Sequence record: PV806337.1
Origin: a phage
Length of the DNA stretch: 64,000 nt
Direction: 5' to 3' (one strand)
Numbering within the stretch: the stretch's first letter is position 1; every line of letters starts with the position of its first letter. The position numbers were made by a program, and so were the translations under genes. The notes beneath the pieces are model-generated. The model made no database searches. It saw nothing but the letters and a program-made list of their open reading frames with translations, and was not told the origin of the DNA. Positions 20,923 to 42,587 of this stretch are shown one piece after another.

Positions 20923-20994
20923 GCCGTCCTAGTATAATTGGTATTATCAAGCCGTAACTGGTGGAAGATGTAGGTTCGAATCCTACGGTCGGTA
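20923..20994 (+). tRNA. tRNA-like gene, anticodon unresolved
   Basis: Canonical T-arm GTAGG-TTCGAAT-CCTAC followed by acceptor 3' strand; 5' acceptor pairs with one mismatch; no clean anticodon stem found by eye. Confidence 0.35.
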
Positions 20995-24300: not shown

Positions 24301-24507
24301 ATTTTGACACCTCCTAGTATATAGAAAATGTGTGTCTCTTTGATCACTCATCCATAACATATACTTTACACTACCCCAGCGAAAATGTCAAGGGGTCTTT
24401 AAAAATTGCCCCCGGATTTTTAGTGGGGTCACAAATTTTGGTCCTCCCCACTTATCTGCTACCCTTAAGTGCCCTATGATTTTCCTCTAAAAAGTTAAAA
24501 AATTTGA

Positions 24508-24536
24508 TTGCTTGAATGCTAAATTCTCTGTATAAT
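24508..24536 (+). promoter_or_regulatory. T5-type promoter
   Basis: TTGCTT 24508-24513, 17 bp, TATAAT 24531-24536. Confidence 0.7.
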
Positions 24537-24566
24537 ATATCTATAAATTTGAGAGAGGAACCAAAT

Positions 24567-25201: not shown

Positions 25202-25279
25202 GGTTCTCAAGCTCATATGGTATGAGCACCCGGCTCATAACCGGAAGGTACGTAGGTTCGAATCCTCGGGGAGCCACCA
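25202..25279 (+). tRNA. tRNA with CAT anticodon (Met/fMet/Ile2 type)
   Basis: Acceptor GGTTCTC/GGGAGCC, D-stem GCTC/GAGC, anticodon loop CTCATAA, T-loop TTCGAAT with weak T-stem, CCA. Confidence 0.5.
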
Positions 25280-26243: not shown

Positions 26244-26273
26244 CTCCTCCAAACAGAATTTTTAAAAATGTAC

Positions 26274-26303
26274 TTGCCTTTTGCTTTAAATTTCTGATAT
26301 AAT
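26274..26303 (+). promoter_or_regulatory. T5-type promoter
   Basis: TTGCCT 26274-26279, 18 bp, TATAAT 26298-26303. Confidence 0.6.
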
Positions 26304-26333
26304 AGTTATATAAATTGATGAAGGAGTTAACTA

Positions 26334-27003: not shown

Positions 27004-27078
27004 GCACCTTTAGCTGAGATGGATTAGCGCTTGCCTGAAGAGCTTGAGAGGTTGGATCGTTACCAACGGGGTGCTCCA
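27004..27078 (+). tRNA. tRNA-Phe-like (anticodon GAA), atypical
   Basis: Acceptor GCACCTT/GGGGTGC, anticodon loop CTGAAGA, non-canonical T-loop ATCGTTA, CCA; anticodon stem has two U-U mismatches. Confidence 0.45.
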
Positions 27079-28107: not shown

Positions 28108-28209
28108 AATTCTGTGTAGAGTTAAGTAAACCGGTAGCCAACCAGCTATCATTGCTGACATCGAATTCAGCCATAGATACCATTTTCGTTAATAACTGAG
28201 GAAACAAGC

Positions 28210-29108: not shown

Positions 29109-29230
29109 CAAAATTTCAGTGCAGAACACGGAGCTAGCAATTCGGAAGTGCTGACTCATGATAAGCTGCCTATGTACTTGCGAAGCGGTCGTGTCCAAGA
29201 CTCGGACTCTTGCACTGAAAACAATCAAAC

Positions 29231-29352
29231 ATTCTAGCGTGGTTGATGGGGAAACCAGCTTGGCGAGGGCAGAAGCTCGTTCGATTCGAGTGAAAGAATG
29301 GTTCTCGTAAGTCCGCACAAGTGATAACAGGTTCGAGTCCTGTCTAGAATGA
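29231..29352 (+). ncRNA. 122-nt tRNA-like structured RNA (acceptor-like helix, D-arm, two T-arm hairpins)
   Basis: ATTCTAG (29231-29237) pairs perfectly with CTAGAAT (29346-29352); D-arm TGGT/ACCA; T-arm hairpins GCTCG-TTCGATT-CGAGT and ACAGG-TTCGAGT-CCTGT; no CCA; no ORF. Confidence 0.3.
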
Positions 29353-29500
29353 CACTATAAAGTTTACTTATTATGTAGGTTCCGATAGACCGGCGGGTCT
29401 ATTCTGGCATTTAAGAGAGGTCTCGCAAACTTCTTTGTCAGCCGTGGGGTTGGTAGCCTCCAGGTGGCCTACACAATAAGTAAATTTATTAAAAATTCAT

Positions 29501-29529
29501 TTGCTATTCTGCTTTATTATCTGTATAAT
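29501..29529 (+). promoter_or_regulatory. T5-type promoter
   Basis: TTGCTA 29501-29506, 17 bp, TATAAT 29524-29529. Confidence 0.7.
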
Positions 29530-29561
29530 ATATTTTATAAAGTGAAGAGAAGGAAAGCAAA

Positions 29562-29720
29562 ATGAAACACAAGATAGCTCAAGTTTTTATGGCATTATGG
29601 TGTATACCAATAGCTATAACAGCATTTAATCTAGATACTTTTACTATAGAAGAAAAATGTATCGGATTAGTTAGCGGTTTTATTATGCTGGGCTTATCTT
29701 TGCTGTGGTTAAAGAACTAA
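29562..29720 (+). CDS. small membrane protein
   Basis: 52-codon frame after promoter 29501-29529 and GAGAAGGAAAG RBS; hydrophobic. Confidence 0.45.
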   Translation: MKHKIAQVFMALWCIPIAITAFNLDTFTIEEKCIGLVSGFIMLGLSLLWLKN

Positions 29721-29724
29721 TATT

Positions 29725-29802
29725 CTCCGTGTAGCTCAGTTTGGCCAGAGCGTTTCGTTTGGGGCGATAGGGTCGGGGGTTCAAATCCTCCCACGGAGAC
29801 CA
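29725..29802 (+). tRNA. tRNA-Pro (anticodon TGG)
   Basis: Acceptor CTCCGTG/CACGGAG, D-arm GCTC/GAGC, anticodon loop TTTGGGG, T-loop TTCAAAT, CCA. Confidence 0.7.
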
Positions 29803-29808
29803 AACAAT

Positions 29809-29886
29809 TGCGGGTTAGATCTCTGGTAGAGATCGCTAGTCTCATAAGCTAGAAAGAGGTAGGTTCGATTCCTGCACCCGCTTCCA
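29809..29886 (+). tRNA. tRNA with CAT anticodon (Met/fMet/Ile2 type)
   Basis: D-arm GATC/GATC, anticodon stem CTAGT/GCTAG, loop CTCATAA, T-loop TTCGATT, CCA. Confidence 0.7.
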
Positions 29887-29906
29887 CTTTAATAGAGGAT
29901 TTCGAA

Positions 29907-30074
29907 ATGAAAGTATTTCGATTAGTAGTAAGTGACAAACGTTTAGGTAAGAATACCTCAAAATCCTTACTTGCTCATTATGGAAAAGATGAGAAAGAAG
30001 TAATGGCGGAGTTTGGGATTAATCACCCTTACTTGAAAGTTCACTCTATTAAAGAAGTATATAATGGTTACTAA
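29907..30074 (+). CDS. hypothetical small protein
   Basis: 55-codon frame read by eye between tRNA-CAT and tRNA-Lys. Confidence 0.4.
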   Translation: MKVFRLVVSDKRLGKNTSKSLLAHYGKDEKEVMAEFGINHPYLKVHSIKEVYNGY

Positions 30075-30075
30075 T

Positions 30076-30154
30076 AGATCGCTAGCTCAATAGGTTTAGT
30101 AGCATCCGACTTTTAATCGGAAGGTTCTGGGTTCGAGTCCCAGGCGATCTACCA
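30076..30154 (+). tRNA. tRNA-Lys (anticodon TTT)
   Basis: Acceptor AGATCGC/GCGATCT perfect, anticodon stem TCCGA/TCGGA, loop CTTTTAA, T-loop TTCGAGT, CCA. Confidence 0.8.
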
Positions 30155-30172
30155 ATTTCAAGAAAAACGCAG

Positions 30173-30201
30173 TTGCTTGATGCTTAATTTCTTGTTATAA
30201 T
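30173..30201 (+). promoter_or_regulatory. T5-type promoter driving ORF-free segment and tRNA-Ala
   Basis: TTGCTT 30173-30178, 17 bp, TATAAT 30196-30201. Confidence 0.7.
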
Positions 30202-30438
30202 ATTTATATAAATTGATGAGGAGAAATCCTCATCATAGTTCACTAAGGTATTAGCTCGACCTAGGACTGGCTACCAAAAAGCACGATCCCTACGATTTGG
30301 AGAAGTTCTAGATTAGTCCACTAGATTCAGCGGCAACTGAATAGTGTATTGGGTTTGCGAGATGACGCAGTTCCTTCCGCTCGAAGCGAAGGTGCTGTAG
30401 TTACGCCGAGCTAATAGCCTTAGTAAACTAAAGAATTT

Positions 30439-30517
30439 GGGGGATGGGTCTGCTAGGGGTGGACACCTCACTTGCACCGAGGACATCAGAACGATTCGAA
30501 TTCGTTATCCTCCACCA
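30439..30517 (+). tRNA. tRNA-Ala (anticodon TGC)
   Basis: Acceptor GGGGGAT/ATCCTCC, D-stem GTCT/GGAC, anticodon loop CTTGCAC, T-arm AACGA-TTCGAAT-TCGTT, CCA. Confidence 0.6.
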
Positions 30518-30522
30518 AATAC

Positions 30523-30599
30523 GCGTGATTGATGGAATTGGCATACATACCGTCCTTAGAAGTCGGGTTTTGAGGGTTCGAATCCCTTGTCACGCACCA
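30523..30599 (+). tRNA. tRNA with TAG anticodon (Leu by anticodon) but short variable arm
   Basis: Acceptor GCGTGAT/GTCACGC, anticodon loop CTTAGAA, T-arm GAGGG-TTCGAAT-CCCTT, A73, CCA; 5-nt variable region. Confidence 0.5.
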
Positions 30600-30724
30600 A
30601 ATTTGATGGTCAGAGTAAATTAAACCTACTATCTCGGTTGAGCTGTTTTAATGGGTTCGAATCCCAGCGAGGCGTAACTGCCTGGTGTGATAGAGGCATC
30701 ATTCCACTAACATTGGAAAAACTA

Positions 30725-30955
30725 ATGAAACGAAAATTAAAAAAGTCTTATATAATTAAGATAAATAAGCTACGAAGTAGGGCAAAAGGATGGCCACTTC
30801 GAATATTAATTGCGGATAACCATACTAGATACCATGCGGAACAACGTCATTACAAACAGTGGGAGTCATACTGCCGCTCAAAAGCAGGTCGTTTAGATGG
30901 ATCTTATGAGTTTCTATTTGGTAAGAAGCCTACTAGAGTAGCTTTAGGTAATTAA
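30725..30955 (+). CDS. small basic protein
   Basis: In-frame ATG inside track ORF 30587-30955; upstream part carries a tRNA T-arm-like motif. Confidence 0.4.
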   Translation: MKRKLKKSYIIKINKLRSRAKGWPLRILIADNHTRYHAEQRHYKQWESYCRSKAGRLDGSYEFLFGKKPTRVALGN

Positions 30956-30959
30956 TACT

Positions 30960-31050
30960 TGGAAGAGCAAATCGAATTGGCGACGAAAACCGCTTGGAAA
31001 GTGGCTGACTGGTAAAACGGCTTGAGAGTTCAAATCTCTCCTCTTCCGCC
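30960..31050 (+). tRNA. tRNA-Ser (anticodon GGA)
   Basis: Anticodon loop TTGGAAA, long variable arm, T-arm GAGAG-TTCAAAT-CTCTC, acceptor 3' CTCTTCC, CCA. Confidence 0.6.
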
Positions 31051-31062
31051 AAACAATTTATA

Positions 31063-31157
31063 TGGTAGGTCAATCCAATGGCTGGCGTGGGACTCCGACT
31101 TGAAATCGGTTGATCGTAGTGATACGGTGTAAGGGTTCGATCCCCTTACCTACCTCC
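31063..31157 (+). tRNA. tRNA-Ser (anticodon TGA)
   Basis: Acceptor GGTAGGT/ACCTACC perfect, anticodon stem CCGA/TCGG, loop CTTGAAA, long variable arm, T-loop TTCGATC, CCA. Confidence 0.7.
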
Positions 31158-31523
31158 AAATCTTGAAGTATGCCGGAATCGGTAGACGGGGCTGCCTAAA
31201 AGGTTTATAGGGAACATCCACTCCCTGCAACATACCTCATAAAGCGGCTGAGATAAATGGTCTATCTCGTGAAGGTTCAAGTCCTTCTGCTTCTTGATAT
31301 ATCTATGGCTCAAAGTGTAACGGTGCTATTTGATGCTCTTAGTAAGACTTTCCCGACATGCGTTCGGGAGTAAGCTGCTAAGGCTAGAGTAGAAGAGTTT
31401 CGGAGAGCCGCCACAATTGAAAATTCGTACTCGTCTTGAGCTGCGCGCAATAGGAGATAACTTGATTAGTATTCTAGAACATGCTAATTGAGGATGGTTT
31501 CGCTAACCCTGCGAGTTTTCAAT

Positions 31524-31600
31524 TGTGGCTATATCATAATTGGTTAATGATCCTGATTGTGAATCAGGCCTATGTGGATTCGAATTCCACTAGCCACCCC
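31524..31600 (+). tRNA. tRNA-His (anticodon GTG)
   Basis: Acceptor GTGGCTA/TAGCCAC, D-arm TCAT/ATGA, anticodon stem CCTGA/TCAGG, loop TTGTGAA, T-loop TTCGAAT, CCA. Confidence 0.8.
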
Positions 31601-31626
31601 AAATTAACTTAAACAGGAAATAAAAT

Positions 31627-31821
31627 ATGGCTGATTTCTGCAAACAATGCTCCATTGATATGTGGGGCAGAGATACTGGTGATCTTTCTGGTTTGATTAC
31701 AGAAGCTGAAGTTAAAGAAGGCTACGGTGCAGTTGTAGTTTGCGAAGGCTGTGGAGTTATTCGAGTAGATCATGAAGGCAAACGTTTAGAAGAACCTGGG
31801 CCAACTACTCTAATTCCATAG
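31627..31821 (+). CDS. putative zinc-ribbon small protein
   Basis: ORF track 64 aa; CKQC ... CEGC pairs. Confidence 0.55.
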   Translation: MADFCKQCSIDMWGRDTGDLSGLITEAEVKEGYGAVVVCEGCGVIRVDHEGKRLEEPGPTTLIP

Positions 31822-31833
31822 AGTAATAATTAT

Positions 31834-31909
31834 TGGGATGTAGATCAATTGGCAGATCGTCGGCCTCTGACTCCGAAGGTTCCACGTTCGATCCGTGGCA
31901 TCCCAGCCA
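31834..31909 (+). tRNA. tRNA-Gln (anticodon CTG)
   Basis: 76 nt; U1-A72, G73, anticodon positions 34-36 CTG, T-loop TTCGATC, CCA. Confidence 0.8.
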
Positions 31910-31915
31910 AACAAT

Positions 31916-31991
31916 TGGAGAGTAGTGTAACGGTTAGCACAACGGCCTTTGACTCCGTTAATGGTAGGTTCGATTCCTCCTTCTCCAGCCA
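31916..31991 (+). tRNA. tRNA-Gln (anticodon TTG)
   Basis: 76 nt; U1-A72, G73, D-stem GTGT/GCAC, anticodon loop CTTTGAC, T-loop TTCGATT, CCA. Confidence 0.8.
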
Positions 31992-31999
31992 AATAATAA

Positions 32000-32075
32000 G
32001 CGGTTAAGCACACGGGTTGTGTCGCAGGCCTTCCAAGCCTCGCTGAGTAGGGTTCGATTCCCTCTAGCCGCTCCA
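32000..32075 (+). tRNA. tRNA-Gly (anticodon TCC)
   Basis: Acceptor GCGGTTA/TAGCCGC, anticodon loop CTTCCAA, T-loop TTCGATT, U73, CCA. Confidence 0.8.
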
Positions 32076-32091
32076 ACTTTAAGGAAATGTT

Positions 32092-32313
32092 ATGCACGTT
32101 TTTGAGTTTCGTAATAAAAATACTGATAAGCGAGTTATCATTATTGGAGAAACATACCGAGCATATGAACAAACTGACGGCTCTGTTATCTTGAATGATG
32201 AGAAAGGAGGTTTTAGCTTTTATCCAGAAGAACCTTATGAAGAGTTTCGTACTAAGTTTCTTTTACCAGACTGGCTAGCAGTAGCTGAGCAACGAGAATC
32301 CGAAGATGGCTGA
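32092..32313 (+). CDS. hypothetical protein
   Basis: ORF track 73 aa. Confidence 0.5.
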   Translation: MHVFEFRNKNTDKRVIIIGETYRAYEQTDGSVILNDEKGGFSFYPEEPYEEFRTKFLLPDWLAVAEQRESEDG

Positions 32314-32470
32314 TAACCTAAAATTAAGGGTCGACAAACAAAAGAAATACATTGAGGTTGAATTAGGCGAAGAACGCTTAAAGCTAACTTTCGAGTTTCT
32401 TCAGCAGTTGGCAATGACAGTTATGACTGATAAGTCTCCTGTTATTGAAAAAGAAATCCCGTTGAAATAA
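32306..32470 (+). CDS. hypothetical small protein
   Basis: 54-codon frame overlapping previous stop. Confidence 0.4.
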   Translation: MADNLKLRVDKQKKYIEVELGEERLKLTFEFLQQLAMTVMTDKSPVIEKEIPLK

Positions 32471-32478
32471 CGGGTTCT

Positions 32479-32553
32479 GCTCCTAAAGCATTGCTGGCGA
32501 TGCAGTTGCCTTGTAAGCATCTGAACCGGGTTCGATTCCTGGTGGGAGCACCA
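32479..32553 (+). tRNA. tRNA-Thr (anticodon TGT)
   Basis: Acceptor GCTCCTA/TGGGAGC, D-arm GCAT/ATGC, anticodon loop CTTGTAA, T-loop TTCGATT, CCA. Confidence 0.75.
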
Positions 32554-32568
32554 AATTTAAAAATTCAT

Positions 32569-32597
32569 TTGCCTTCTCTCTTATTTCTTGTTATAAT
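32569..32597 (+). promoter_or_regulatory. T5-type promoter
   Basis: TTGCCT 32569-32574, 17 bp, TATAAT 32592-32597. Confidence 0.65.
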
Positions 32598-32627
32598 ATT
32601 TATATAAATTAATGAGAGGGAAACCAA

Positions 32628-32921
32628 ATGAAACGTTATCTTTCTGTAGTATTTCAAACTGGTGGTCAAAGATATACCTATGAATTTCCTAACTCTTGGA
32701 AAATCAAAGAAGGTGATCAAGTTGTTGTGTTAACACCACGTGAAGGATATAAAGTAGTAACTGTTAAACAAGTATTCCCAAAAGATCATGAACCAGCTAA
32801 AGGCATTTGCTATAAGATGATTCATGGTGTAGTTCGTCAAGTACCACGAGCGGAAGTCGAAATCAAAATAGATAAAGATGGTAAACTTAAATACACCTCC
32901 TGCTTAGACGAGTTGCTATAA
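32628..32921 (+). CDS. hypothetical protein
   Basis: ORF track 97 aa after promoter 32569-32597. Confidence 0.55.
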   Translation: MKRYLSVVFQTGGQRYTYEFPNSWKIKEGDQVVVLTPREGYKVVTVKQVFPKDHEPAKGICYKMIHGVVRQVPRAEVEIKIDKDGKLKYTSCLDELL

Positions 32922-33127
32922 TGAGGATTACTTTTACAGAAAAGATCATGAGTAATGGTGTTATGATCATTACCGCATGGGATGGTAATCAGTGGTGTAG
33001 TGTTTCAGGTATTAAACCTGAAGAACAAACACTAGAAAATATCTCAAAGATTAAGCGAAGAATGGCAGAACGTGCACGACTTCCAGGTGCACCCAGAAAT
33101 GGCAAACGTTCTGCAACTAAATGTTAA
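32921..33127 (+). CDS. hypothetical protein
   Basis: ORF track 68 aa, ATGA overlap with previous gene. Confidence 0.5.
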   Translation: MRITFTEKIMSNGVMIITAWDGNQWCSVSGIKPEEQTLENISKIKRRMAERARLPGAPRNGKRSATKC

Positions 33128-33128
33128 T

Positions 33129-33205
33129 GCTTCGGTAGCTTAGCGATCTAAAGCACTCGGCTGATAACCGAGAGATCGGGGGTTTAAATCCCTCCCGGAG
33201 TACCA
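33129..33205 (+). tRNA. tRNA-Ile (anticodon GAT)
   Basis: Anticodon stem CTCGG/CCGAG perfect, loop CTGATAA, atypical T-loop TTTAAAT, CCA. Confidence 0.7.
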
Positions 33206-33301
33206 AATTTAGGAATTAAGACTATGCGTCCAGGAAAGTTTAAAAAAGCTAATTGGTCTAAAGAGTATAAAGAATACTTACTTAGTCTAATAAAACATAA
33301 T

Positions 33302-33377
33302 AGTTAGTTGGCAGAGTGGTTATGCACCTCCTTCATACGGAGCGATTACAGTGGTTCAAATCCACTACTAACTACCA
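33302..33377 (+). tRNA. tRNA with CAT anticodon (Met/fMet/Ile2 type)
   Basis: Acceptor AGTTAGT/ACTAACT perfect, anticodon loop TTCATAC, T-arm AGTGG-TTCAAAT-CCACT, CCA. Confidence 0.7.
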
Positions 33378-33414
33378 TTAAAAGAGCTAGAGATAGCTAA
33401 ATATAGGAGCAGTT

Positions 33415-33609
33415 ATGTTAACAGTTAAAGTAATGGCCACTAATGGTGGTGAAGAAATTCATGACGGTACTAGTGTAGGATTTAATCCCAAAAATAAAAG
33501 TATTCATATTTCAGGATTAGATCAACCAATTTTCTTAAAAGAGAATGAAGTTGCCTATGTTATGAACCAAAATGGTAAAACTGTTTCCGTATACTATGGA
33601 AAAGTATAA
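33415..33609 (+). CDS. hypothetical protein
   Basis: ORF track 64 aa; hairpin plus T-run at 33620-33642. Confidence 0.5.
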   Translation: MLTVKVMATNGGEEIHDGTSVGFNPKNKSIHISGLDQPIFLKENEVAYVMNQNGKTVSVYYGKV

Positions 33610-33794
33610 AGAATAAAATATCAGGCCTTTGTGCCTGATTTCTATGTTTATTAAGCTGAATGGGACTATCAATCCACAAGCCGGACTACGAGCGATTATC
33701 GGGTATTCACTTAATAAACAGCCTGCCTTCCAGTTTTTATCTTGCTTCTGGGTTAACAAAAAGCTGAGCCAAATTCTAACATCGGGGAGATCTA

Positions 33795-34163
33795 ATGAAA
33801 GCATATCAAAATCTTAAATCTGGCGTAATTAACCTTGTTCATGAAAATCAGATTATTCAGCTGTACTCCGACAATGGTGAACTTAAACAGAAAGTTCTAG
33901 TTGAAGATCTAGAAGGTATCACACCACAATTCGATTCCGAAGCCTTCCGTGAAGTCAAAGTGGAAGTCGCTCCTCAAATCGAAGGTGGTCAGCACCTAAA
34001 TGTCAATGTGTTAAGCCGTGATCAGCTTTTGGATGCGCAGAAACATCCTGAAAAATATCCTCAGTTGACCATCCGTGTCTCTGGCTACGCTGTTCGATTT
34101 AATGCACTGACTCGCGAACAACAGAACGACGTTATTAGTCGTACGTTTACTCAGGCGATGTAA
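33795..34163 (+). CDS. grcA: autonomous glycyl-radical cofactor protein (GrcA/YfiD-like)
   Basis: ORF track 122 aa; C-terminal [27 protein letters not shown] matches glycyl-radical domain. Confidence 0.7.
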
Positions 34164-34244
34164 TGGGGTTTGGATACGATTTCTCCCAGCTACGCAAGGT
34201 AGTCGAGCAAACTCCATTTATCTCCCAAGTTTTAGGAGAAATGT

Positions 34245-34559
34245 GTGGATCGAGCATTAAGACGCCATCACCGGCAACGTATGAAGAACAACCGCAAGAA
34301 GTACTGGACAGTCTTTCCACATGAAGAAAGCCCTAAGCGGTTAGGTATCATCACTACTACTCCTTGCATCTGTTCTTGTTGGATGTGTGGGAACCCTCGC
34401 AAATATTATAAGAATAGTAAAGCAGGACTGAAAATTTCGGAGATTAGGAAAATGGAAGCAATGATTATGGGCATTTCAAATGATGAATTTGATGGCTTTG
34501 TAGGATTCGGAGAAGGAATCAGCTCAGGCTGTTTCGAAGATGAATGCCACGATCTGTAA
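34245..34559 (+). CDS. Cys-rich hypothetical protein
   Basis: ORF track 104 aa; terminator hairpin at 34569-34599. Confidence 0.5.
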   Translation: MDRALRRHHRQRMKNNRKKYWTVFPHEESPKRLGIITTTPCICSCWMCGNPRKYYKNSKAGLKISEIRKMEAMIMGISNDEFDGFVGFGEGISSGCFEDECHDL

Positions 34560-34568
34560 TTAATAACA

Positions 34569-34605
34569 AACCCCAGCTATTGAACAAGTAGTCTGGGGTT
34601 TTTCT
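34569..34605 (+). terminator. rho-independent terminator
   Basis: Hairpin CCCCAGCT...AGTCTGGGG then TTTTTCTG. Confidence 0.65.
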
Positions 34606-34680
34606 GTATACAGGTAAATAGTTTATGTATAATAAAATTCATCCACATTAGGTTAATTTAAAAGACTTAATGGAGGTAAT

Positions 34681-35028
34681 ATGAGCCGTACTTATCGTAA
34701 ACAATCTGGTGATCAGTGGTGGAAGTCTAAAGAACAATTCTCTCAAGAATATTCTTTCATCAAAGAAAATGGCTACTGGATTCGTGTTATTTATGCCAAA
34801 TCTTGGGACTACATCAAAAAAGAAATGAAGGAAGCAACCATTCGTAATGAGAAAAAGGATGGTTATAACTGGAATTCCATTAGTAAGAATGTTAAGTGGC
34901 ACTCTAATAAAATGGTTCGTCAAGGGAATCGTCAAGAACTCCACCGCGTGATGAAAGATACAGAAAATTATGATTATAATCGCGATCATGACATGCGTAA
35001 GCGTGGATTATGGTGGTGCTATGACTAA
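34681..35028 (+). CDS. hypothetical basic protein
   Basis: ORF track 115 aa with GGAGG RBS; opposing ORF 34648-34989 judged spurious. Confidence 0.5.
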   Translation: MSRTYRKQSGDQWWKSKEQFSQEYSFIKENGYWIRVIYAKSWDYIKKEMKEATIRNEKKDGYNWNSISKNVKWHSNKMVRQGNRQELHRVMKDTENYDYNRDHDMRKRGLWWCYD

Positions 35029-35044
35029 ATTCTGAAATAATTCA

Positions 35045-35073
35045 TTTGCTAAACCTCTCTTTTCTTGCTATAA
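35045..35073 (+). promoter_or_regulatory. T5-type promoter
   Basis: TTGCTA 35045-35050, 17 bp, TATAAT 35068-35073. Confidence 0.7.
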
Positions 35074-35104
35074 TATATTTATAAATTGATGGGAGAGGTT
35101 TGAA

Positions 35105-35386
35105 ATGAAAACTCGTCTAGACTGTGCCCTTCATGTTCTTGAGCATGATGTTGTGGGAACCTGTATGTCTTACCACGAAGCAGGTCGTTTAATTAAAGAA
35201 CGTGTGGCAGATGTGTGCGGATTGAAGATTACTGCTGAGGAATCTGAGGATCTTTTAGGTCAAGCACTGGAGAAAACCGAAATGTTTCTCTGCGATTCTT
35301 GTTCTTGGTGGTGTGAAGCTCACGAACGTTCTTTCAACGATTATGATGTATGTCGTGATTGTAGTGGGGAGGATGAAAATGAATAA
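35105..35386 (+). CDS. Cys-rich hypothetical protein
   Basis: ORF track 93 aa after promoter 35045-35073. Confidence 0.55.
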   Translation: MKTRLDCALHVLEHDVVGTCMSYHEAGRLIKERVADVCGLKITAEESEDLLGQALEKTEMFLCDSCSWWCEAHERSFNDYDVCRDCSGEDENE

Positions 35387-35678
35387 GTTTATTATTGCAC
35401 TGATGATCTCCGCAGTTAGTTTCGGTTCTATGGCGTCTACCAAAGTTTCTATGAAAAATGGCAGTGTTAAAGTCCAACAGAACGGCATTATTACCGAGTA
35501 TGGTAAAGTTCGTGATGTTAAAGAACGTAATGGTAAAGTAGAAATCTATACTAACAAAAACTTTTCTACTCCAGCTGTTACTATTGGCAAACGCGGTGAA
35601 ATAACCACTCAACGTACTAATAGCTCTAGTTCTTTTACTTGTCGTTATGATTGCGACTTTGAAGGTGAAGATGAATAA
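35379..35678 (+). CDS. secreted small protein
   Basis: ATG 35379 overlapping previous stop (ATGAATAA), inside track ORF; signal-peptide-like N-terminus. Confidence 0.5.
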   Translation: MNKFIIALMISAVSFGSMASTKVSMKNGSVKVQQNGIITEYGKVRDVKERNGKVEIYTNKNFSTPAVTIGKRGEITTQRTNSSSSFTCRYDCDFEGEDE

Positions 35679-36063
35679 TTTAGACCCTAGAATTAAATTT
35701 GCAATTACCGAAATCCAAGATCAAATTGATGAGGACTTTACTGTTTGGTCAAGGTCCGGTAACGGGGAATACTGCCAGCTTTATAGTATGAAAATGGGTA
35801 TCTCAATTGAGCTTAATATCAACTCTGAGGGTAGAGTTGAAGCCCAACCCATGTTCAGTGTTCCAGGCTTCTCTGGATTTGTTGCAGGTATAAAATTGTG
35901 CCTACCAAATAACCATCTTCATCGAGTTATTTGTCAGCTAGAGACTATTAAGCATTTCTTGCCAGAAGGTAATATTAATGACTACTACCATGAAGTTGTA
36001 GCAGCTCATATGATGAAAGAAAGTAAACGTCGGAGAGAAGAACGTGAAAAGACTAAACATTAA
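35671..36063 (+). CDS. hypothetical protein
   Basis: ATG 35671 overlapping previous stop (ATGAATAA), inside track ORF 35647-36063. Confidence 0.5.
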   Translation: MNNLDPRIKFAITEIQDQIDEDFTVWSRSGNGEYCQLYSMKMGISIELNINSEGRVEAQPMFSVPGFSGFVAGIKLCLPNNHLHRVICQLETIKHFLPEGNINDYYHEVVAAHMMKESKRRREEREKTKH

Positions 36064-36340
36064 CAGCACAGTGCAGATTCCAGCAACTAAGGATGTTTTA
36101 ACATTCCTACGAAGTGAAAACGCTCAGTTTTGGCATGATCATGTTGTAAAGAACGGTAGTATTCCAGATGTAGTTGCCTTTGCCAAAAAACGTATCGAAG
36201 AATATAAAGATCCAGAGATTAAAGATGGGATGATCACTATGCAATTGTGGGTAGCCATGAATACGTTTGGACCTACTATGAGTCTAGGAGTTACTCCACT
36301 GTTTACTAATATTCTAATTAATGAAAAGGATCTGAAATGA
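36044..36340 (+). CDS. hypothetical protein
   Basis: ORF track 98 aa. Confidence 0.5.
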   Translation: MKRLNINSTVQIPATKDVLTFLRSENAQFWHDHVVKNGSIPDVVAFAKKRIEEYKDPEIKDGMITMQLWVAMNTFGPTMSLGVTPLFTNILINEKDLK

Positions 36341-36621
36341 TTATCTCTCCATTTGCTCTTTGGTTCGTCATTGGATCTATAGTAGCTATTTACAGCTTGG
36401 TTGATGATCTGTATATTTCTAAGAATAAAGATGTAATATTATACGTTATACATAAAACTCGACCGTTAGATCTGCCTCCTCTTGATGATAAAACATTACT
36501 CAGATGTGCTAGATCTATGATATTTATTGTGGATATTCTTCTAGGCCCAACATCTGTGTTTTTCTTTTATAGAAAGACTCGTAATATGAAAAAATTTAAA
36601 GCTGAAATGCAGAATACCTAA
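36337..36621 (+). CDS. membrane protein
   Basis: ORF track 94 aa with hydrophobic segments. Confidence 0.5.
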   Translation: MIISPFALWFVIGSIVAIYSLVDDLYISKNKDVILYVIHKTRPLDLPPLDDKTLLRCARSMIFIVDILLGPTSVFFFYRKTRNMKKFKAEMQNT

Positions 36622-36731
36622 AGAACTCGCGTAGGACCGAGTTGCGTCACCTGCAACTGTTACGGATAAGGGAGTCGTGCCCCTTAGTGCGGTAAGTGGT
36701 GAGGTGGCTGCTAGCCATAACTGGAGATAAT

Positions 36732-37076
36732 ATGACTATATTACTAATTCTTGTTACAACTTGGTTTTTAATCGGTGCTGTATATGCGATAGCTATTATT
36801 AGACATTTGGATGAACATTCTGCTGAATGGTTTGTTAAGTATCTACGTATTGATGATCAAGAACAGAAGTTTAAAGATGAAAAGCAGAAAAAAGCAGTAA
36901 ATAATATGACAGCCAAAGAATGCTTGTTCTACATGCGTATTGTAGGGTTCTTTGGACTATTAGTTGCTGGCCCAATTGGTTCTACCATTGCTCCATATAA
37001 AGAAACAGTTGCTGACATCAAATTGTGGAGAAATGCAGGGGTACTACGCAAAGCTAGAGAAACTAATATTACATAA
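36732..37076 (+). CDS. membrane protein
   Basis: ATG 36732 with GGAG RBS, inside track ORF 36696-37076; two hydrophobic segments. Confidence 0.5.
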   Translation: MTILLILVTTWFLIGAVYAIAIIRHLDEHSAEWFVKYLRIDDQEQKFKDEKQKKAVNNMTAKECLFYMRIVGFFGLLVAGPIGSTIAPYKETVADIKLWRNAGVLRKARETNIT

Positions 37077-37119
37077 GATTGATACTAAATCAACTTACTA
37101 GCAAAAGCAAATAATGACA

Positions 37120-37156
37120 AAGCCCAGCCTGCACTTTTGCGACTGGGCTATTTTTA
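37120..37156 (+). terminator. rho-independent terminator
   Basis: Hairpin AGCCCAGCCTGCAC-TTTTGC-GACTGGGCT then T-run. Confidence 0.65.
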
Positions 37157-37170
37157 TAATAAAATTTTAG

Positions 37171-37199
37171 TTGCTTAGATGCCCAAACTTTTGTATAAT
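37171..37199 (+). promoter_or_regulatory. T5-type promoter
   Basis: TTGCTT 37171-37176, 17 bp, TATAAT 37194-37199. Confidence 0.7.
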
Positions 37200-37230
37200 A
37201 TGTTTATAGATTGAGGCAAGAGGATTAAAT

Positions 37231-37929
37231 ATGAGGATTATTTCTAAGTTCGCCGATGTGTATGATTTGCAGAACAGTTTGTTCGACCCAGATCGTGTTT
37301 GGGAGCGTAAAACTGAAGAGTTGCTGGTTAAAGTAACCGATGATGCAGAAAAGAACATTGTGCATACTCGCCAGGTATTTCGTGATGGCTCGCTATCTTT
37401 TCGTGGTGATTTCGAATATTTTGTAAACCCACTATTTGTTGCAGGTGAAGTTTACTGGTTGCACGAGCTGTACTGCTGGCATCCGGCATTTAGCTTCAAA
37501 ACGTTCAACCTCGACACTATGTTCGATAAAATGGAAGAGATGGGGTTGCATGCCCGCTCTTATTTAATGGATAAGAGTCGCGGAGATGTTCGTGAAACAA
37601 TGCGTGATTTGCTCGCTGAAGCAAAACCTAAAGCAGAACGTATCTTATCCGAACTGCGTGTACCGATTGCATATGTGAAAGGTATTAAAAAGAACGATAA
37701 CGATGATGTTCGTAACTTCGTGATTCAGACTAACATTCGTTTCCATCAGTCAGGTATTCCGTGGCAGGAAATTGAAAGTAACTTATACCGTTTACACCAA
37801 GTTCTCGAACAGTATATCTTCGGTGTACTAGGAACTGGTGAGCCTGATATGATTAAAGTATCAGATAAAGACAGGTTAGCAGCGCATGGATTTGATACAA
37901 AAACTTCTTTCAGGAATATGGCAAGGTAA
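37231..37929 (+). CDS. hypothetical protein
   Basis: ORF track 232 aa after promoter 37171-37199. Confidence 0.6.
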   Translation: MRIISKFADVYDLQNSLFDPDRVWERKTEELLVKVTDDAEKNIVHTRQVFRDGSLSFRGDFEYFVNPLFVAGEVYWLHELYCWHPAFSFKTFNLDTMFDKMEEMGLHARSYLMDKSRGDVRETMRDLLAEAKPKAERILSELRVPIAYVKGIKKNDNDDVRNFVIQTNIRFHQSGIPWQEIESNLYRLHQVLEQYIFGVLGTGEPDMIKVSDKDRLAAHGFDTKTSFRNMAR

Positions 37930-38335
37930 GTGGTATATCCTGGGAGCAGGTCTAGCGATAGGCATCGGGTTCGGTGCTTATCACTTAGTAGATAAAGTGG
38001 AGACTTTAGCAGGAGATCTTGCGGTAGCTACTAAAAAGATTTCTTCTCTAGAGACTTCCCTCAATAAGGTGAAAGCTGAAAGCGAACTTCGTGAGACTAG
38101 AATGAATCAGTATTTCACAATGAATAATATTTCGCAAGCAGATCTAGACAAAAAGATTAAGCAGTTAGACAAAGCTCTTAGTCGCCAAGATATTATAGCT
38201 GCAAAGCCTGGATTGGTAACATTAATTGCTAAAAAGCAGAGTAAAGAGTTCGAGGAAAGATTAGCATGTTTAACTGGAAACTTGGAATACTGCTCGCAGC
38301 CGCAATCACAATCACAGGCTGTGCAGAAGAAATAA
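37886..38335 (+). CDS. candidate i-spanin (N-terminal TM + coiled coil)
   Basis: ORF track 149 aa; single N-terminal hydrophobic segment then charged helical region. Confidence 0.45.
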   Translation: MDLIQKLLSGIWQGKWYILGAGLAIGIGFGAYHLVDKVETLAGDLAVATKKISSLETSLNKVKAESELRETRMNQYFTMNNISQADLDKKIKQLDKALSRQDIIAAKPGLVTLIAKKQSKEFEERLACLTGNLEYCSQPQSQSQAVQKK

Positions 38336-38619
38336 AACCAGAGCCATCTCATGAGTTAAAGCAAGCTCATGTAGACTGGCCTAAAGGACTTCAACCTTGT
38401 AGCTTTGACTTTAAGTTTGAAAAGAAAGTAGCTACAAATGGAGAAGATGGCGTAGTAGTTGTTGTACCATATAAAGATTGGAATATGTTGGCAAAATGCC
38501 GTGAGGCAGAATATTCATATATTTCACGACTGACAAGTATGGTTTGCTTCTATCGCCAAGATTTACAAGAAAAACGTTGCTTAGTTTACTATCCACCCAT
38601 TACAAATAGGAAAGATTAA
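38266..38619 (+). CDS. candidate o-spanin / outer-membrane lipoprotein
   Basis: ORF track 117 aa; lipobox AITITGC; starts inside 3' end of previous gene in another frame. Confidence 0.45.
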   Translation: MFNWKLGILLAAAITITGCAEEIKPEPSHELKQAHVDWPKGLQPCSFDFKFEKKVATNGEDGVVVVVPYKDWNMLAKCREAEYSYISRLTSMVCFYRQDLQEKRCLVYYPPITNRKD

Positions 38620-39371
38620 TGTCAGTATTAGTCGGTTTACATGGTGAAGCTGGTTCGGGAAAAGATACCGTTGCAAAATTAATTATCGATTGGTGTAATG
38701 ACACGTATCCAACGTGTTTACCCCGTCGTTATAGTTTTGCTAAGCCCGTTTATGAACTTGCATCCGTAATCCTCGGTGTAACTCCAGAGTTTCTAGGAGA
38801 GCGCAGGGGAAAAGAGGTTGACCAATGGTTTACGGTCACACAATCTCAATTGGAGCGAGCCAGAGATGTGTGGTTTAAGTACGGTATCGATAAGTTTGAA
38901 GACTTCTCGTACGTTTGGCCTATTTTTGAGGAAAAATATCTTAATCCTCAACAACTTATCTCAGAGAGTAAAAAAGACGGACTTTATAGTTTATTTATTT
39001 CTCCGAGAAAAATGTTACAGCTCGTAGGAACTGAGCTAGGAAGGCAGCTGGTGCATGAACGCATTTGGCTCATAATTCTGGAGCAATCCATCGCTAAAGA
39101 CGACCCAGACGTCGCCGTAATAACAGATGTTAGATTCCCCAATGAAGGAGAGTTACTCAGAGAAACAAACCATTTAGATATGGATTCTTTGATAGTAAAT
39201 GTAGTACCCGCTGAGCAGAAGTTCACTATTAAATCAGATCATCCATCTGAAAGTGGTATTCCTGCAAAATATATTACTCACGAATTAGTTAATAAATTCG
39301 ATGGTATCAATAACCTTAAACTAGAAGTTTATAACTTCTGTGACTTAGAGCTAGAACCACTAGTTGGATAA
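38619..39371 (+). CDS. dnk: deoxynucleoside monophosphate kinase
   Basis: ORF track 250 aa; P-loop GEAGSGKDT at N-terminus. Confidence 0.7.
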   Translation: MSVLVGLHGEAGSGKDTVAKLIIDWCNDTYPTCLPRRYSFAKPVYELASVILGVTPEFLGERRGKEVDQWFTVTQSQLERARDVWFKYGIDKFEDFSYVWPIFEEKYLNPQQLISESKKDGLYSLFISPRKMLQLVGTELGRQLVHERIWLIILEQSIAKDDPDVAVITDVRFPNEGELLRETNHLDMDSLIVNVVPAEQKFTIKSDHPSESGIPAKYITHELVNKFDGINNLKLEVYNFCDLELEPLVG

Positions 39372-42531: not shown

Positions 42532-42560
42532 TTGCTTTTTGCTAAAAATTTTGGTATAAT
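42532..42560 (+). promoter_or_regulatory. T5-type promoter
   Basis: TTGCTT 42532-42537, 17 bp, TATAAT 42555-42560. Confidence 0.7.
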
Positions 42561-42587
42561 ATTTATATAAATTGATCGGAGGATTAA

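What the first reader, a model, noticed from the sequence alone, without database searches (positions are those of the whole stretch)
30202..30438. Strong promoter followed by ~240 nt with no ORF before tRNA-Ala
The promoter at 30173-30201 begins a transcript that starts with a perfect hairpin (GATGAGGAGAAATCCTCATC, 30213-30232) and has no ORF until tRNA-Ala at 30439. The leader is either a processed precursor segment or an independent small RNA.
Basis: seen in the sequence. Interest (0 to 1): 0.5.

Follow-up and report, generated by a model that had tools for sequence, protein, structure and literature searches.

The report
Phage T5 stable RNA "RNA2H"
The "empty" 240 bases between a phage promoter and a tRNA gene encode RNA2H, a small stable RNA of phage T5 that has been on record for about 20 years with no known function; here it proves to be a conserved, pseudoknotted RNA that is probably cut out of a tRNA transcript by RNase III.

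Summary
The window is a T5-like phage (Tequintavirus) tRNA region. There is a T5-type early promoter (TTGCTT-17-TATAAT, 30173-30201; 94.6% identical to annotated T5 promoter P13b). A 9-bp GAAA hairpin follows at 30214-30235. There is no credible ORF, and a weak, non-canonical tRNA-Ala lies at 30439-30517.

Bases 30249-30419 are 97.7% identical to rna2H of T5 (GenBank AY543070: "stable RNA with unknown functions"; also annotated in BF23 and DT571/2).

What this analysis adds:
- 47 distinct homologues from five Demerecviridae lineages support a five-helix fold with a loop-to-strand pseudoknot. 95.6% of cells pair, against 32-42% when partners are slid.
- No Rfam family matches. There is no copy in 5,426 E. 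coli genomes, and a motif scan of bacterial genomes found none.
- The annotated mature ends lie inside a conserved ~21-bp leader-trailer stem, with a 2-nt 3' stagger across two invariant G-C pairs. This is the RNase III signature, and T5 RNAIII and RNAIV share it.

T5 mutants that lack the region are viable, so the RNA is accessory. Its function remains unknown.

The parts
30173..30201 (+). Early promoter, orthologue of T5 P13b: -35 TTGCTT (30173-78), 17-nt spacer, -10 TATAAT (30196-201). Expected transcription start about 30207-30209.
   Evidence: Sequence. 30154-30227 is 94.6% identical to the annotated P13b of AY543070. Not listed by the consensus scan because the -35 matches at only 3 of 6 positions.
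30214..30235 (+). 5' leader hairpin, 9 bp with a GAAA tetraloop. It lies outside the mature RNA.
   Evidence: -13.8 kcal/mol. Hairpins of different sequence at the same place in KKP3711, L239 and DU_PP_V. Absent in Sugarlandvirus and phage 1-23.
30237..30248 (+). Leader strand of the processing stem: P1x AGUU (30237-40), C30241 mismatch, P1a ACUAAGG (30242-48). Pairs with 30418-30429.
   Evidence: every pair is 100% paired. Pairs 6/280 and 7/279 change on both sides. The two pairs next to the cut (G-C, G-C) are invariant in 47 sequences.
30249..30419 (+). Mature RNA2H (171 nt here, 172 nt in T5).
   Evidence: 97.7% identical over the full length of the rna2H feature of AY543070. CM score 203 bits on the + strand against 31 bits on the - strand.
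30249..30258 (+). P1b 5' strand UAUUAGCUCG. Pairs with 30407-30416.
   Evidence: six of the 10 pairs change on both sides in at least one lineage.
30264..30269 (+). Pseudoknot 5' strand GGACUG. Pairs with the P3 loop UAGUCC (30314-30319).
   Evidence: helix 2: 100% paired and 4 of 6 pairs change on both sides. Variants are GGACUG/UAGUCC, GAACCG/UGGUUC, GAGCCG/UGGCUC and GAGUCG/UGACUC, with a U.G intermediate in L131. RNAalifold chose this helix unprompted.
30274..30284 (+). Invariant junction strand CCAAAAAGCAC (CCAAAAAACAC in Klebsiella phages). GCAC (30281-84) may pair with GUGU (30344-47).
   Evidence: helix 3: 100% paired, but only one one-sided change, so the pairing is unproven.
30287..30301 (+). 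P2, a peripheral arm of variable length: 3 bp here, 4 bp in T5, extended by 20-30 nt in Epseptimavirus and Sugarlandvirus.
   Evidence: helix 4.
30307..30325 (+). P3 hairpin: UCUAG (30307-11) pairs with CUAGA (30321-25). The 9-nt loop AUUAGUCCA donates the pseudoknot strand.
   Evidence: helix 5: all 5 pairs change on both sides (for example UCUAG/CUAGA becomes UCUGA/UCAGA in bobsandoy and SB13).
30326..30341 (+). P4 hairpin UUCAG / CUGAA with loop CGGCAA (CUGGUAA in other lineages).
   Evidence: helix 6. The stem sequence differs in every lineage: UUCAG, AGGU, GGG, ACGC.
30342..30356 (+). Conserved junction UAGUGUAUUGGGUUU. AGUGUA and UUUG are invariant.
30357..30406 (+). P5, a long composite arm: 3-bp base GCG/CGC, an internal loop, then helices of 3 and 8 bp and a variable tip.
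   Evidence: helices 7 and 8: 9 of 14 pairs change on both sides between Tequintavirus and the other lineages.
30407..30429 (+). 3' strand of the closing and processing stem: P1b CGAGCUAAUA (30407-16), bulged G30417, P1a CCUUAGU (30418-24), A30425, P1x AACU (30426-29). The annotated mature 3' end falls after C30419.
30430..30438 (+). 9-nt spacer (AAAGAAUUU) before tRNA-Ala, presumably removed by RNase P.
   Evidence: Sequence; inference.
30439..30517 (+). Non-canonical tRNA-Ala(UGC), G3.U70, CCA encoded.
   Evidence: relaxed ARAGORN. Orthologues are annotated or scored as tRNA-Ala.

Best explanation
The stretch is the gene for RNA2H, one of the small stable RNAs encoded in the tRNA region of phage T5 and its relatives.

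Transcription (shown by homology to the annotated T5 and BF23 features). The early promoter P13b drives a polycistronic transcript: a short leader with a hairpin, then RNA2H, tRNA-Ala, tRNA-Leu and further genes.

Fold (shown here by comparative analysis). RNA2H is a compact structured RNA. A long closing stem (P1) encloses four arms (P2-P5). The loop of P3 pairs with the strand that leaves P1, forming a pseudoknot. Several junction strands are invariant: CCAAAAAGCAC, AGUGUA and UUUG.

Processing (inferred, about 0.6). The RNA is released by RNase III. The leader and trailer extend P1 to about 21 bp. The annotated ends are staggered by 2 nt, with a 3' overhang, across two invariant G-C pairs beside a bulged G. 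RNase P then removes the remaining 19-nt stub from tRNA-Ala.

Function (inferred, about 0.5). The released RNA acts in trans as a non-essential accessory factor, a scaffold or decoy for a host or phage protein or RNA, in the same anti-defence and host-takeover region as the T5 tRNAs. What it binds is unknown.
For: Identity:
- The window matches T5-like phages at up to 98% identity.
- 30249-30419 is 97.7% identical to rna2H of AY543070, which is annotated 'stable RNA with unknown functions', with P13b upstream and tRNA-Ala downstream.
- The same annotation appears in BF23 and DT571/2.

Structure:
- MFE z-score is -7.2.
- On 47 distinct sequences, 95.6% of cells pair, against 32-42% with slid partners. 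34 of 59 pairs change on both sides. The pseudoknot is 100% paired.
- RNAalifold recovers P1, the pseudoknot and P5 independently.
- G.U pairs and the CM scores (203 against 31 bits) fix the strand.

Independence from context:
- The same module is found without the hairpin (Sugarlandvirus).
- It is found without an adjacent promoter (phage 1-23, CRW-SP5).
- It is followed by tRNA-Leu (DU_PP_V, L239) or by an ORF (EPS7, CRW-SP5).

RNase III:
- The stem outside the annotated ends covaries.
- The ends give a 2-nt 3' overhang, and the same holds for T5 RNAIV and RNAIII.
- The two base pairs between the cuts are invariant G-C. A neighbouring bulge gives a 3-nt dangling end. Both fit the in vivo E. 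coli rules (PMC6212723).

Accessory status:
- T5-123 (deletion 29191-32442) and T5Mos (deletion 30661-38625) lack rna2H (31808-31979) and still grow (PMC11464382).
Against: - No RNA-level data are available for this window. Stability and ends rest on GenBank annotations whose experimental basis I could not read. If the ends were inferred by the annotators rather than mapped, the RNase III argument is partly circular.
- The homologues fall into only about five lineages, so few substitutions are independent. An all-against-all column test is swamped by phylogeny (504 pairs pass). The support is at the level of helices and register, not single pairs.
- The Px pairing (GCAC/GUGU) has no compensatory change.
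- Nothing found here indicates a binding partner or a phenotype.
- No literature on RNA2H was found in the searchable library.
Confidence: 0.8

Rival explanations
1. It is a cis-acting processing and stability module. The long stem exists only to provide an RNase III site that separates and matures the downstream tRNAs (or protects the transcript). The excised piece is a by-product with no activity of its own.
For: The leader-trailer stem is conserved and covaries. The RNA is co-transcribed with tRNAs in most lineages. RNAIII and RNAIV share the same stem architecture.
Against: A processing site needs only the stem, yet the ~150-nt interior is maintained across lineages that are 25-30% divergent. 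That interior includes a covarying pseudoknot, four arms and invariant single-stranded motifs. The module also occurs in front of ORFs rather than tRNAs. It is annotated as accumulating as a stable species.
Confidence: 0.12
2. It is an ordinary 5' leader or spacer of a tRNA precursor, degraded after RNase P cleavage. The apparent structure is fortuitous.
For: It lies directly upstream of a tRNA and has no ORF.
Against: z = -7.2. The helices are conserved in register and the pseudoknot covaries. The region is more conserved than its flanks and keeps its identity when the flanks are swapped. It is annotated as a stable RNA in T5 and BF23.
Confidence: 0.02
3. It is a tRNA-like or tmRNA-like molecule. 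RNase P makes the 5' end at 30249. The 3' end ...AAUA-GCC is completed to GCCA, so a 10-bp acceptor-like stem with discriminator G is charged or bound by tRNA enzymes.
For: The 3' overhang GCC resembles N73-CC. P5 abuts the 3' strand of P1 as a T arm does. The RNA lies among tRNAs. T5 annotators call three other stable RNAs 'tRNA-like'.
Against: No tRNA or tmRNA signal from ARAGORN or Rfam, even at E<=10. CCA is not encoded, although the tRNA genes read end in an encoded CCA. GCC is fully explained by pairing with the leader GG, and that pairing is part of a covarying stem. The annotators did not label RNA2H tRNA-like.
Confidence: 0.04
4. It is a riboswitch-like sensor that controls read-through into the downstream tRNA genes.
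For: It has the look of an aptamer: a multi-helix junction closed by P1, a pseudoknot, invariant junction nucleotides and variable peripheral arms. It lies just after a promoter.
Against: No terminator or alternative expression platform follows it; the first + strand terminator-like site is at 31271. No Rfam riboswitch matches. In some phages it is not promoter-proximal. It is annotated as a processed stable RNA.
Confidence: 0.03

Closest known systems
RNA2H (rna2H) of phage T5, BF23 and DT571/2 (GenBank AY543070, AJ604530, NC_047749)
   Same: Orthologue. 97.7% identity over the full 172 nt, the same promoter (P13b) upstream, and the same position in the tRNA cluster.
   Different: The window copy has a 1-nt deletion that shortens P2 to 3 bp. 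The neighbours differ: T5's tRNA-Val upstream is missing, and a non-canonical tRNA-Ala replaces the canonical T5 tRNA-Ala downstream.
T5 stable RNAs RNAIII and RNAIV
   Same: They are encoded in the same tRNA region and annotated 'stable RNA with unknown functions'. Their annotated ends also lie in long leader-trailer stems with a 2-nt 3' overhang. Both are present in the window.
   Different: No sequence or structure homology. The RNA2H model gives only hairpin-level scores there (about 12 bits at 29361-29486). They are smaller (103-106 nt), and I did not look for a pseudoknot in them.
T4 species 1 and 2 RNAs (rnaC, rnaD)
   Same: Small stable RNAs of unknown function, co-transcribed with a phage tRNA cluster.
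   Different: Not homologous. The RNA2H covariance model finds nothing at rnaC or rnaD with filters off.
RNase III processing stems (rRNA precursor stems, T7 early RNA sites)
   Same: A leader-trailer duplex of about two helical turns. A staggered double cut leaves a 2-nt 3' overhang, with G-C pairs between the cuts (rules in PMC6212723).
   Different: Cleavage here is inferred, not shown. The excised product is a ~170-nt pseudoknotted RNA rather than rRNA or mRNA.
GOLLD and ROOL, large structured RNAs reported in phages and prophages, often next to tRNA genes (from my own knowledge)
   Same: Complex-folded non-coding RNAs of unknown function in phage genomes, near tRNAs.
   Different: Several times larger and not homologous (no Rfam match). 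RNA2H was found only in T5-like phages.

Membership tests
T5 RNA2H (rna2H) | Sequence homology to the annotated rna2H feature over its full length | tested here: met
   97.7% identity, 172 of 172 nt, window 30249-30419. Hit H39 carries the rna2H annotation.
T5 RNA2H (rna2H) | Synteny: promoter P13b upstream, tRNA-Ala and tRNA-Leu downstream, inside the tRNA cluster | tested here: met
   P13b orthologue at 30154-30227. tRNA-Ala at 30439 and tRNA-Leu at 30523.
T5 RNA2H (rna2H) | Accumulates as a discrete stable RNA of about 172 nt in infected cells | not testable with these tools
   Rests on the GenBank annotation only. No paper describing it could be retrieved.
RNase III substrate (double cleavage in an intramolecular stem) | Duplex of about 20 bp or more around the cleavage sites | tested here: met
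   P1x (4 bp), P1a (7 bp) and P1b (10 bp) give 21 bp, with one mismatch and one bulge. 99.9% of cells pair in 47 sequences.
RNase III substrate (double cleavage in an intramolecular stem) | Ends staggered to leave a 2-nt 3' overhang, with the two intervening positions paired and including G-C | tested here: met
   Annotated T5 ends projected on the fold. The two intervening pairs are G-C in 47 of 47 sequences. Rule taken from PMC6212723. Caveat: the ends come from annotation.
RNase III substrate (double cleavage in an intramolecular stem) | Cleavage depends on RNase III (rnc) | not testable with these tools
   Needs end mapping in rnc+ and rnc- hosts.
tRNA / tRNA-like | Cloverleaf recognised by tRNA models; encoded or added CCA | tested here: not met
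   No ARAGORN or Rfam tRNA hit in 30202-30438, even at E<=10. The 3' end is GCC followed by U.
tmRNA | tRNA-Ala-like domain plus a tag reading frame | tested here: not met
   ARAGORN's tmRNA search is negative. No Rfam tmRNA hit on the RNA2H stretch.
Any Rfam 15 family (riboswitches, ribozymes, RNase P, 6S, Y RNA/YrlA, GOLLD, ROOL, HEARO and others) | Covariance-model score near the family threshold | tested here: not met
   Nothing credible on the window copy at E<=10, nor on seven loci holding diverged homologues at E<=5.
T4 rnaC / rnaD | Homology in sequence and structure | tested here: not met
   RNA2H model R1, filters off, on the T4 tRNA region gives no hit at rnaC or rnaD.
Protein-coding gene | Conserved ORF | tested here: not met
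   Only a 21-aa + strand ORF and a 57-aa minus-strand ORF that overlaps the tRNA. The P2 arm differs in length between lineages by 20-30 nt, including lengths that are not multiples of three, and the substitutions preserve base pairs.

The most novel reading that the evidence does not exclude
RNA2H is the first member of an undescribed class of phage-encoded, pseudoknotted effector RNAs that act in trans on host machinery or defence. For example, it could be a decoy or sensor that binds a tRNA-directed nuclease or a tRNA. The invariant junction strand reads AAA-AAG (AAA-AAA in Klebsiella phages), which are the lysine codons, and the gene lies next to the tRNA-Lys(UUU) that neutralises PARIS. 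Alternatively it could be a small ribozyme or ligand-binding RNA. T5 RNAIII and RNAIV would then be further RNase III-released effectors.
Probability: 0.15. Interest if true: 0.75.

Novelty: already known. Interest (0 to 1): 0.4.

Why it matters
The existence of the RNA is not new. It has been annotated in the T5 GenBank record, submitted in the mid-2000s, as a stable RNA of unknown function.

It matters because the tRNA region of T5 has recently been shown to be an anti-defence locus, for example the T5 tRNA-Lys that neutralises PARIS. The handful of orphan stable RNAs interspersed there have not been revisited.

This analysis supplies what is needed to test RNA2H:
- a comparative secondary structure with a pseudoknot;
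- the invariant nucleotides to mutate;
- a family of homologues across Tequintavirus, Epseptimavirus, Sugarlandvirus and a Pectobacterium phage, which could seed an Rfam entry;
- a specific, falsifiable maturation model (RNase III), which appears to be shared by RNAIII and RNAIV.

Tried and rejected
- Rfam at gathering and E-value thresholds, on the window copy and on seven loci holding diverged homologues: nothing for RNA2H.
- ARAGORN tRNA and tmRNA search: nothing in 30202-30438.
- Literature searches for RNA2H and T5 stable RNAs: no relevant paper. The Glukhov 2018 deletion-mutant paper is not held.
- Motif scan GGCTNCCAAAAAGCAC in IMG/VR: 114 stretches, but only T5-like phages are true homologues.
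- Composite motif scan CCAAAAARCAC...AGTGTA...TTTG:
  - IMG/VR: only T5-like phages.
  - Metagenomes: 11 further T5-like contigs, the rest chance matches.
  - 185,579 bacterial and archaeal genomes: 95 chance matches and no homologue.
- BLAST against 5,426 complete E. coli genomes: no match.
- Covariance-model search of the whole window and of the T4 tRNA/rnaC/rnaD region with filters off: a single copy, no paralogue, no T4 relative.
- The MFE helix CUAGGACU/AGUUCUAG was rejected in favour of P3 plus the pseudoknot, which covary.
- An alternative RNAalifold helix (columns 139-145 with 156-164) conflicts with the covarying P5 base and shows only one-sided changes, so it was not adopted.
- An all-against-all covariation screen for extra tertiary pairs was uninformative, because there are too few independent lineages.
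- A resemblance of GAACCGGCUACC to RNase P region CR-V was considered and dropped, because no RNase P model scores.

Full report
**What the window is.** The 471 bases around the finding match several hundred T5-like phages (Escherichia and Salmonella phages of the Demerecviridae) at up to 98% identity. The window carries 21 ARAGORN tRNA genes on the + strand between 21.5 and 33.4 kb. This is the tRNA gene region of a Tequintavirus.

**Checking the observation.**
- The promoter is as described: TTGCTT (30173-78), 17 nt, TATAAT (30196-201).
- The consensus scanner does not flag it, because TTGCTT matches TTGACA at only 3 of 6 positions.
- However, 30154-30227 is 94.6% identical to the annotated T5 promoter P13b, and related promoter sequences recur through the window.
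With the flanking pair it forms 9 bp and a GAAA loop at 30214-30235, -13.8 kcal/mol.
- No credible ORF exists. The longest + strand ORF in the interval is 21 aa.
- The tRNA-Ala at 30439-30517 is real but marginal. ARAGORN at default settings and the Rfam tRNA model miss it. Relaxed ARAGORN finds a tRNA-Ala(UGC) with G3.U70 and an A.C mismatch in the anticodon stem. Orthologous copies without the mismatch score 36-39 bits.
- The whole 237-nt stretch folds at -85.3 kcal/mol, z = -7.2.

**What it is.**
- A sensitive BLAST of 30202-30438 hits 428 phage records. In T5 (AY543070), BF23 (AJ604530) and DT571/2 the match carries the feature "rna2H: RNA2H".
- The T5 record annotates, in order: promoter P13b, misc_RNA rna2H (172 nt, "stable RNA with unknown functions"), tRNA-Ala and tRNA-Leu. 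BF23 is annotated the same way.
- The rna2H feature maps to window 30249-30419 at 97.7% identity.
- I found no paper on RNA2H in the searchable library.

**Structure.**
- I collected homologues from GenBank phages and by motif scans of IMG/VR and metagenomes.
- They fall into about five lineages:
  - Tequintavirus;
  - Epseptimavirus, with three variants of one arm;
  - Enterobacter phage KKP_3711 with a metagenomic relative;
  - Klebsiella Sugarlandvirus;
  - Pectobacterium phage DU_PP_V (Mccorquodalevirinae).
- I built a covariance model from 21 of them. It aligned 50 copies, 47 of them distinct.
- On that alignment my proposed structure has 59 pairs in 8 helices. It is 95.6% paired, against 32-42% when the 3' partners are slid by 1-3 columns. 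34 pairs change on both sides.
- The architecture in window coordinates is:
  - a closing stem P1b (30249-58 with 30407-16);
  - P2 (30287-30301), an arm of variable length;
  - P3 (30307-11 with 30321-25);
  - P4 (30326-30 with 30337-41);
  - a long composite P5 (30357-30406).
- The 9-nt loop of P3 pairs through UAGUCC (30314-19) with GGACUG (30264-69), just 3' of P1. This pseudoknot is paired in every sequence and takes four forms: GGACUG/UAGUCC, GAACCG/UGGUUC, GAGCCG/UGGCUC and GAGUCG/UGACUC. One Klebsiella phage shows a U.G intermediate.
- RNAalifold picked this helix unprompted.
- The junction strands CCAAAAAGCAC (30274-84), AGUGUA and UUUG are invariant or nearly so.
- A possible GCAC/GUGU helix has no compensatory change and remains unproven.
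- Caveat: with so few lineages, single-column covariation is not independent evidence. 504 arbitrary column pairs pass a naive test. The case rests on contiguous, in-register helices and the slide control.

**It is a module, not a leader.** The conserved unit is the RNA with its stem.
- Sugarlandvirus has the promoter directly before the stem and no 5' hairpin.
- Phages 1-23 and CRW-SP5 have neither that promoter nor the hairpin upstream.
- Downstream one finds tRNA-Ala (most lineages), tRNA-Leu (DU_PP_V, L239) or an ORF (EPS7, CRW-SP5).
- The hairpin is therefore an optional leader element, present in four lineages with different sequences. It is not part of the RNA.

**How it is made (inferred).**
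- The leader (30237-48) and trailer (30418-29) extend P1 to about 21 bp, with one C.A mismatch and a bulged G30417. This extension lies outside the annotated mature RNA, yet it is 100% paired and covaries.
- Projecting the T5 annotated ends on the fold puts the 5' end after the leader GG and the 3' end after CC. This is a 2-nt 3' overhang in helical register, plus the bulged G.
- The annotated ends of T5 RNAIV and RNAIII show the same geometry inside 9-12 bp leader-trailer extensions.
- Transcriptome-wide mapping in E. coli found that RNase III makes double cuts leaving 2-nt 3' overhangs. It also found that the two intervening positions are usually paired with at least one G-C, and that a nearby bulge gives 2- and 3-nt dangling ends (PMC6212723).
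- Here the two intervening pairs are G-C in 47 of 47 sequences.
- I therefore propose RNase III excision, followed by RNase P removal of the 19-nt stub from tRNA-Ala.
- This depends on the annotated ends being experimental, which I could not verify.

**Function.**
- The function is unknown.
- The RNA matches no Rfam family, on the window copy or on diverged homologues.
- It is not tRNA- or tmRNA-like.
- It has no paralogue in the window and no relative at T4 rnaC or rnaD.
- It is absent from 5,426 E. coli genomes. A motif scan of 185,579 prokaryotic genomes found no homologue.
- T5 mutants deleted for the region (T5-123, T5Mos) are viable, and the same region carries the tRNA-Lys that neutralises PARIS (PMC11464382).
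- The most likely reading is a non-essential, trans-acting structured RNA involved in host interaction. A purely cis-acting processing role is the main rival.

**Verdict.** The feature is an already annotated but uncharacterised phage RNA. The new content is the comparative structure with its pseudoknot, the family distribution and the RNase III model. Interest is moderate.

Noticed in passing
window 30076-30154: The tRNA-Lys(UUU) immediately upstream of the promoter is the counterpart of the T5 tRNA-Lys reported to neutralise the PARIS defence system (PMC11464382). The tRNA-Val that lies between tRNA-Lys and promoter P13b in T5 and BF23 is absent from this window.
   Followed up: partly
window 30439-30517: This tRNA-Ala(UGC) is a non-canonical type. 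It has one nucleotide between the acceptor and D stems, a 7-nt variable loop, and here an A.C mismatch in the anticodon stem. It falls below ARAGORN and Rfam thresholds. The same odd type follows RNA2H in Epseptimavirus and Sugarlandvirus. T5 has a canonical tRNA-Ala at this position, and phage atrejo has both.
   Followed up: partly
window 28110-28182, 29230-29354, 29373-29475, 31162-31306, 31307-31413, 31418-31523: Orthologues of the other T5 stable RNAs of unknown function are present: RNA3, RNA2, RNAIV, RNA1, RNAI and RNAIII (86-99% identity). In T5, the annotated ends of RNAIV and RNAIII lie in long leader-trailer stems with a 2-nt 3' overhang, as for RNA2H. This suggests a shared RNase III maturation route.
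   Followed up: partly
window 29482-29556, 32553-32616, 26255-26326, 42532-42583, 35061-35096, 24498-24560: There is a family of similar promoter sequences, 75-89% identical to T5 P13a or P13b, scattered through the window. They are presumably the T5 early promoters.
   Followed up: no
window 20923-20994, 25202-25276, 27004-27075: The Rfam tRNA model scores 31-40 bits here, but ARAGORN calls no gene. These may be further atypical or degenerate phage tRNAs, or the 'tRNA-like' RNAs.
   Followed up: no
window 30313-30486 (- strand): A 57-aa ORF lies antisense to RNA2H and tRNA-Ala. Several GenBank records annotate 'hypothetical protein' CDSs over the RNA2H locus (for example SB13, Kpn02, Roth49). 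These are almost certainly over-calls on a non-coding RNA gene.
   Followed up: partly
window 30600-30672: The stretch after tRNA-Leu ends in a T-arm-like GGGTTCGAATCCC and resembles the sequence that follows tRNA-Leu in Pectobacterium phage DU_PP_V (L089). It may be a truncated or degenerate tRNA. No tool called it.
   Followed up: no
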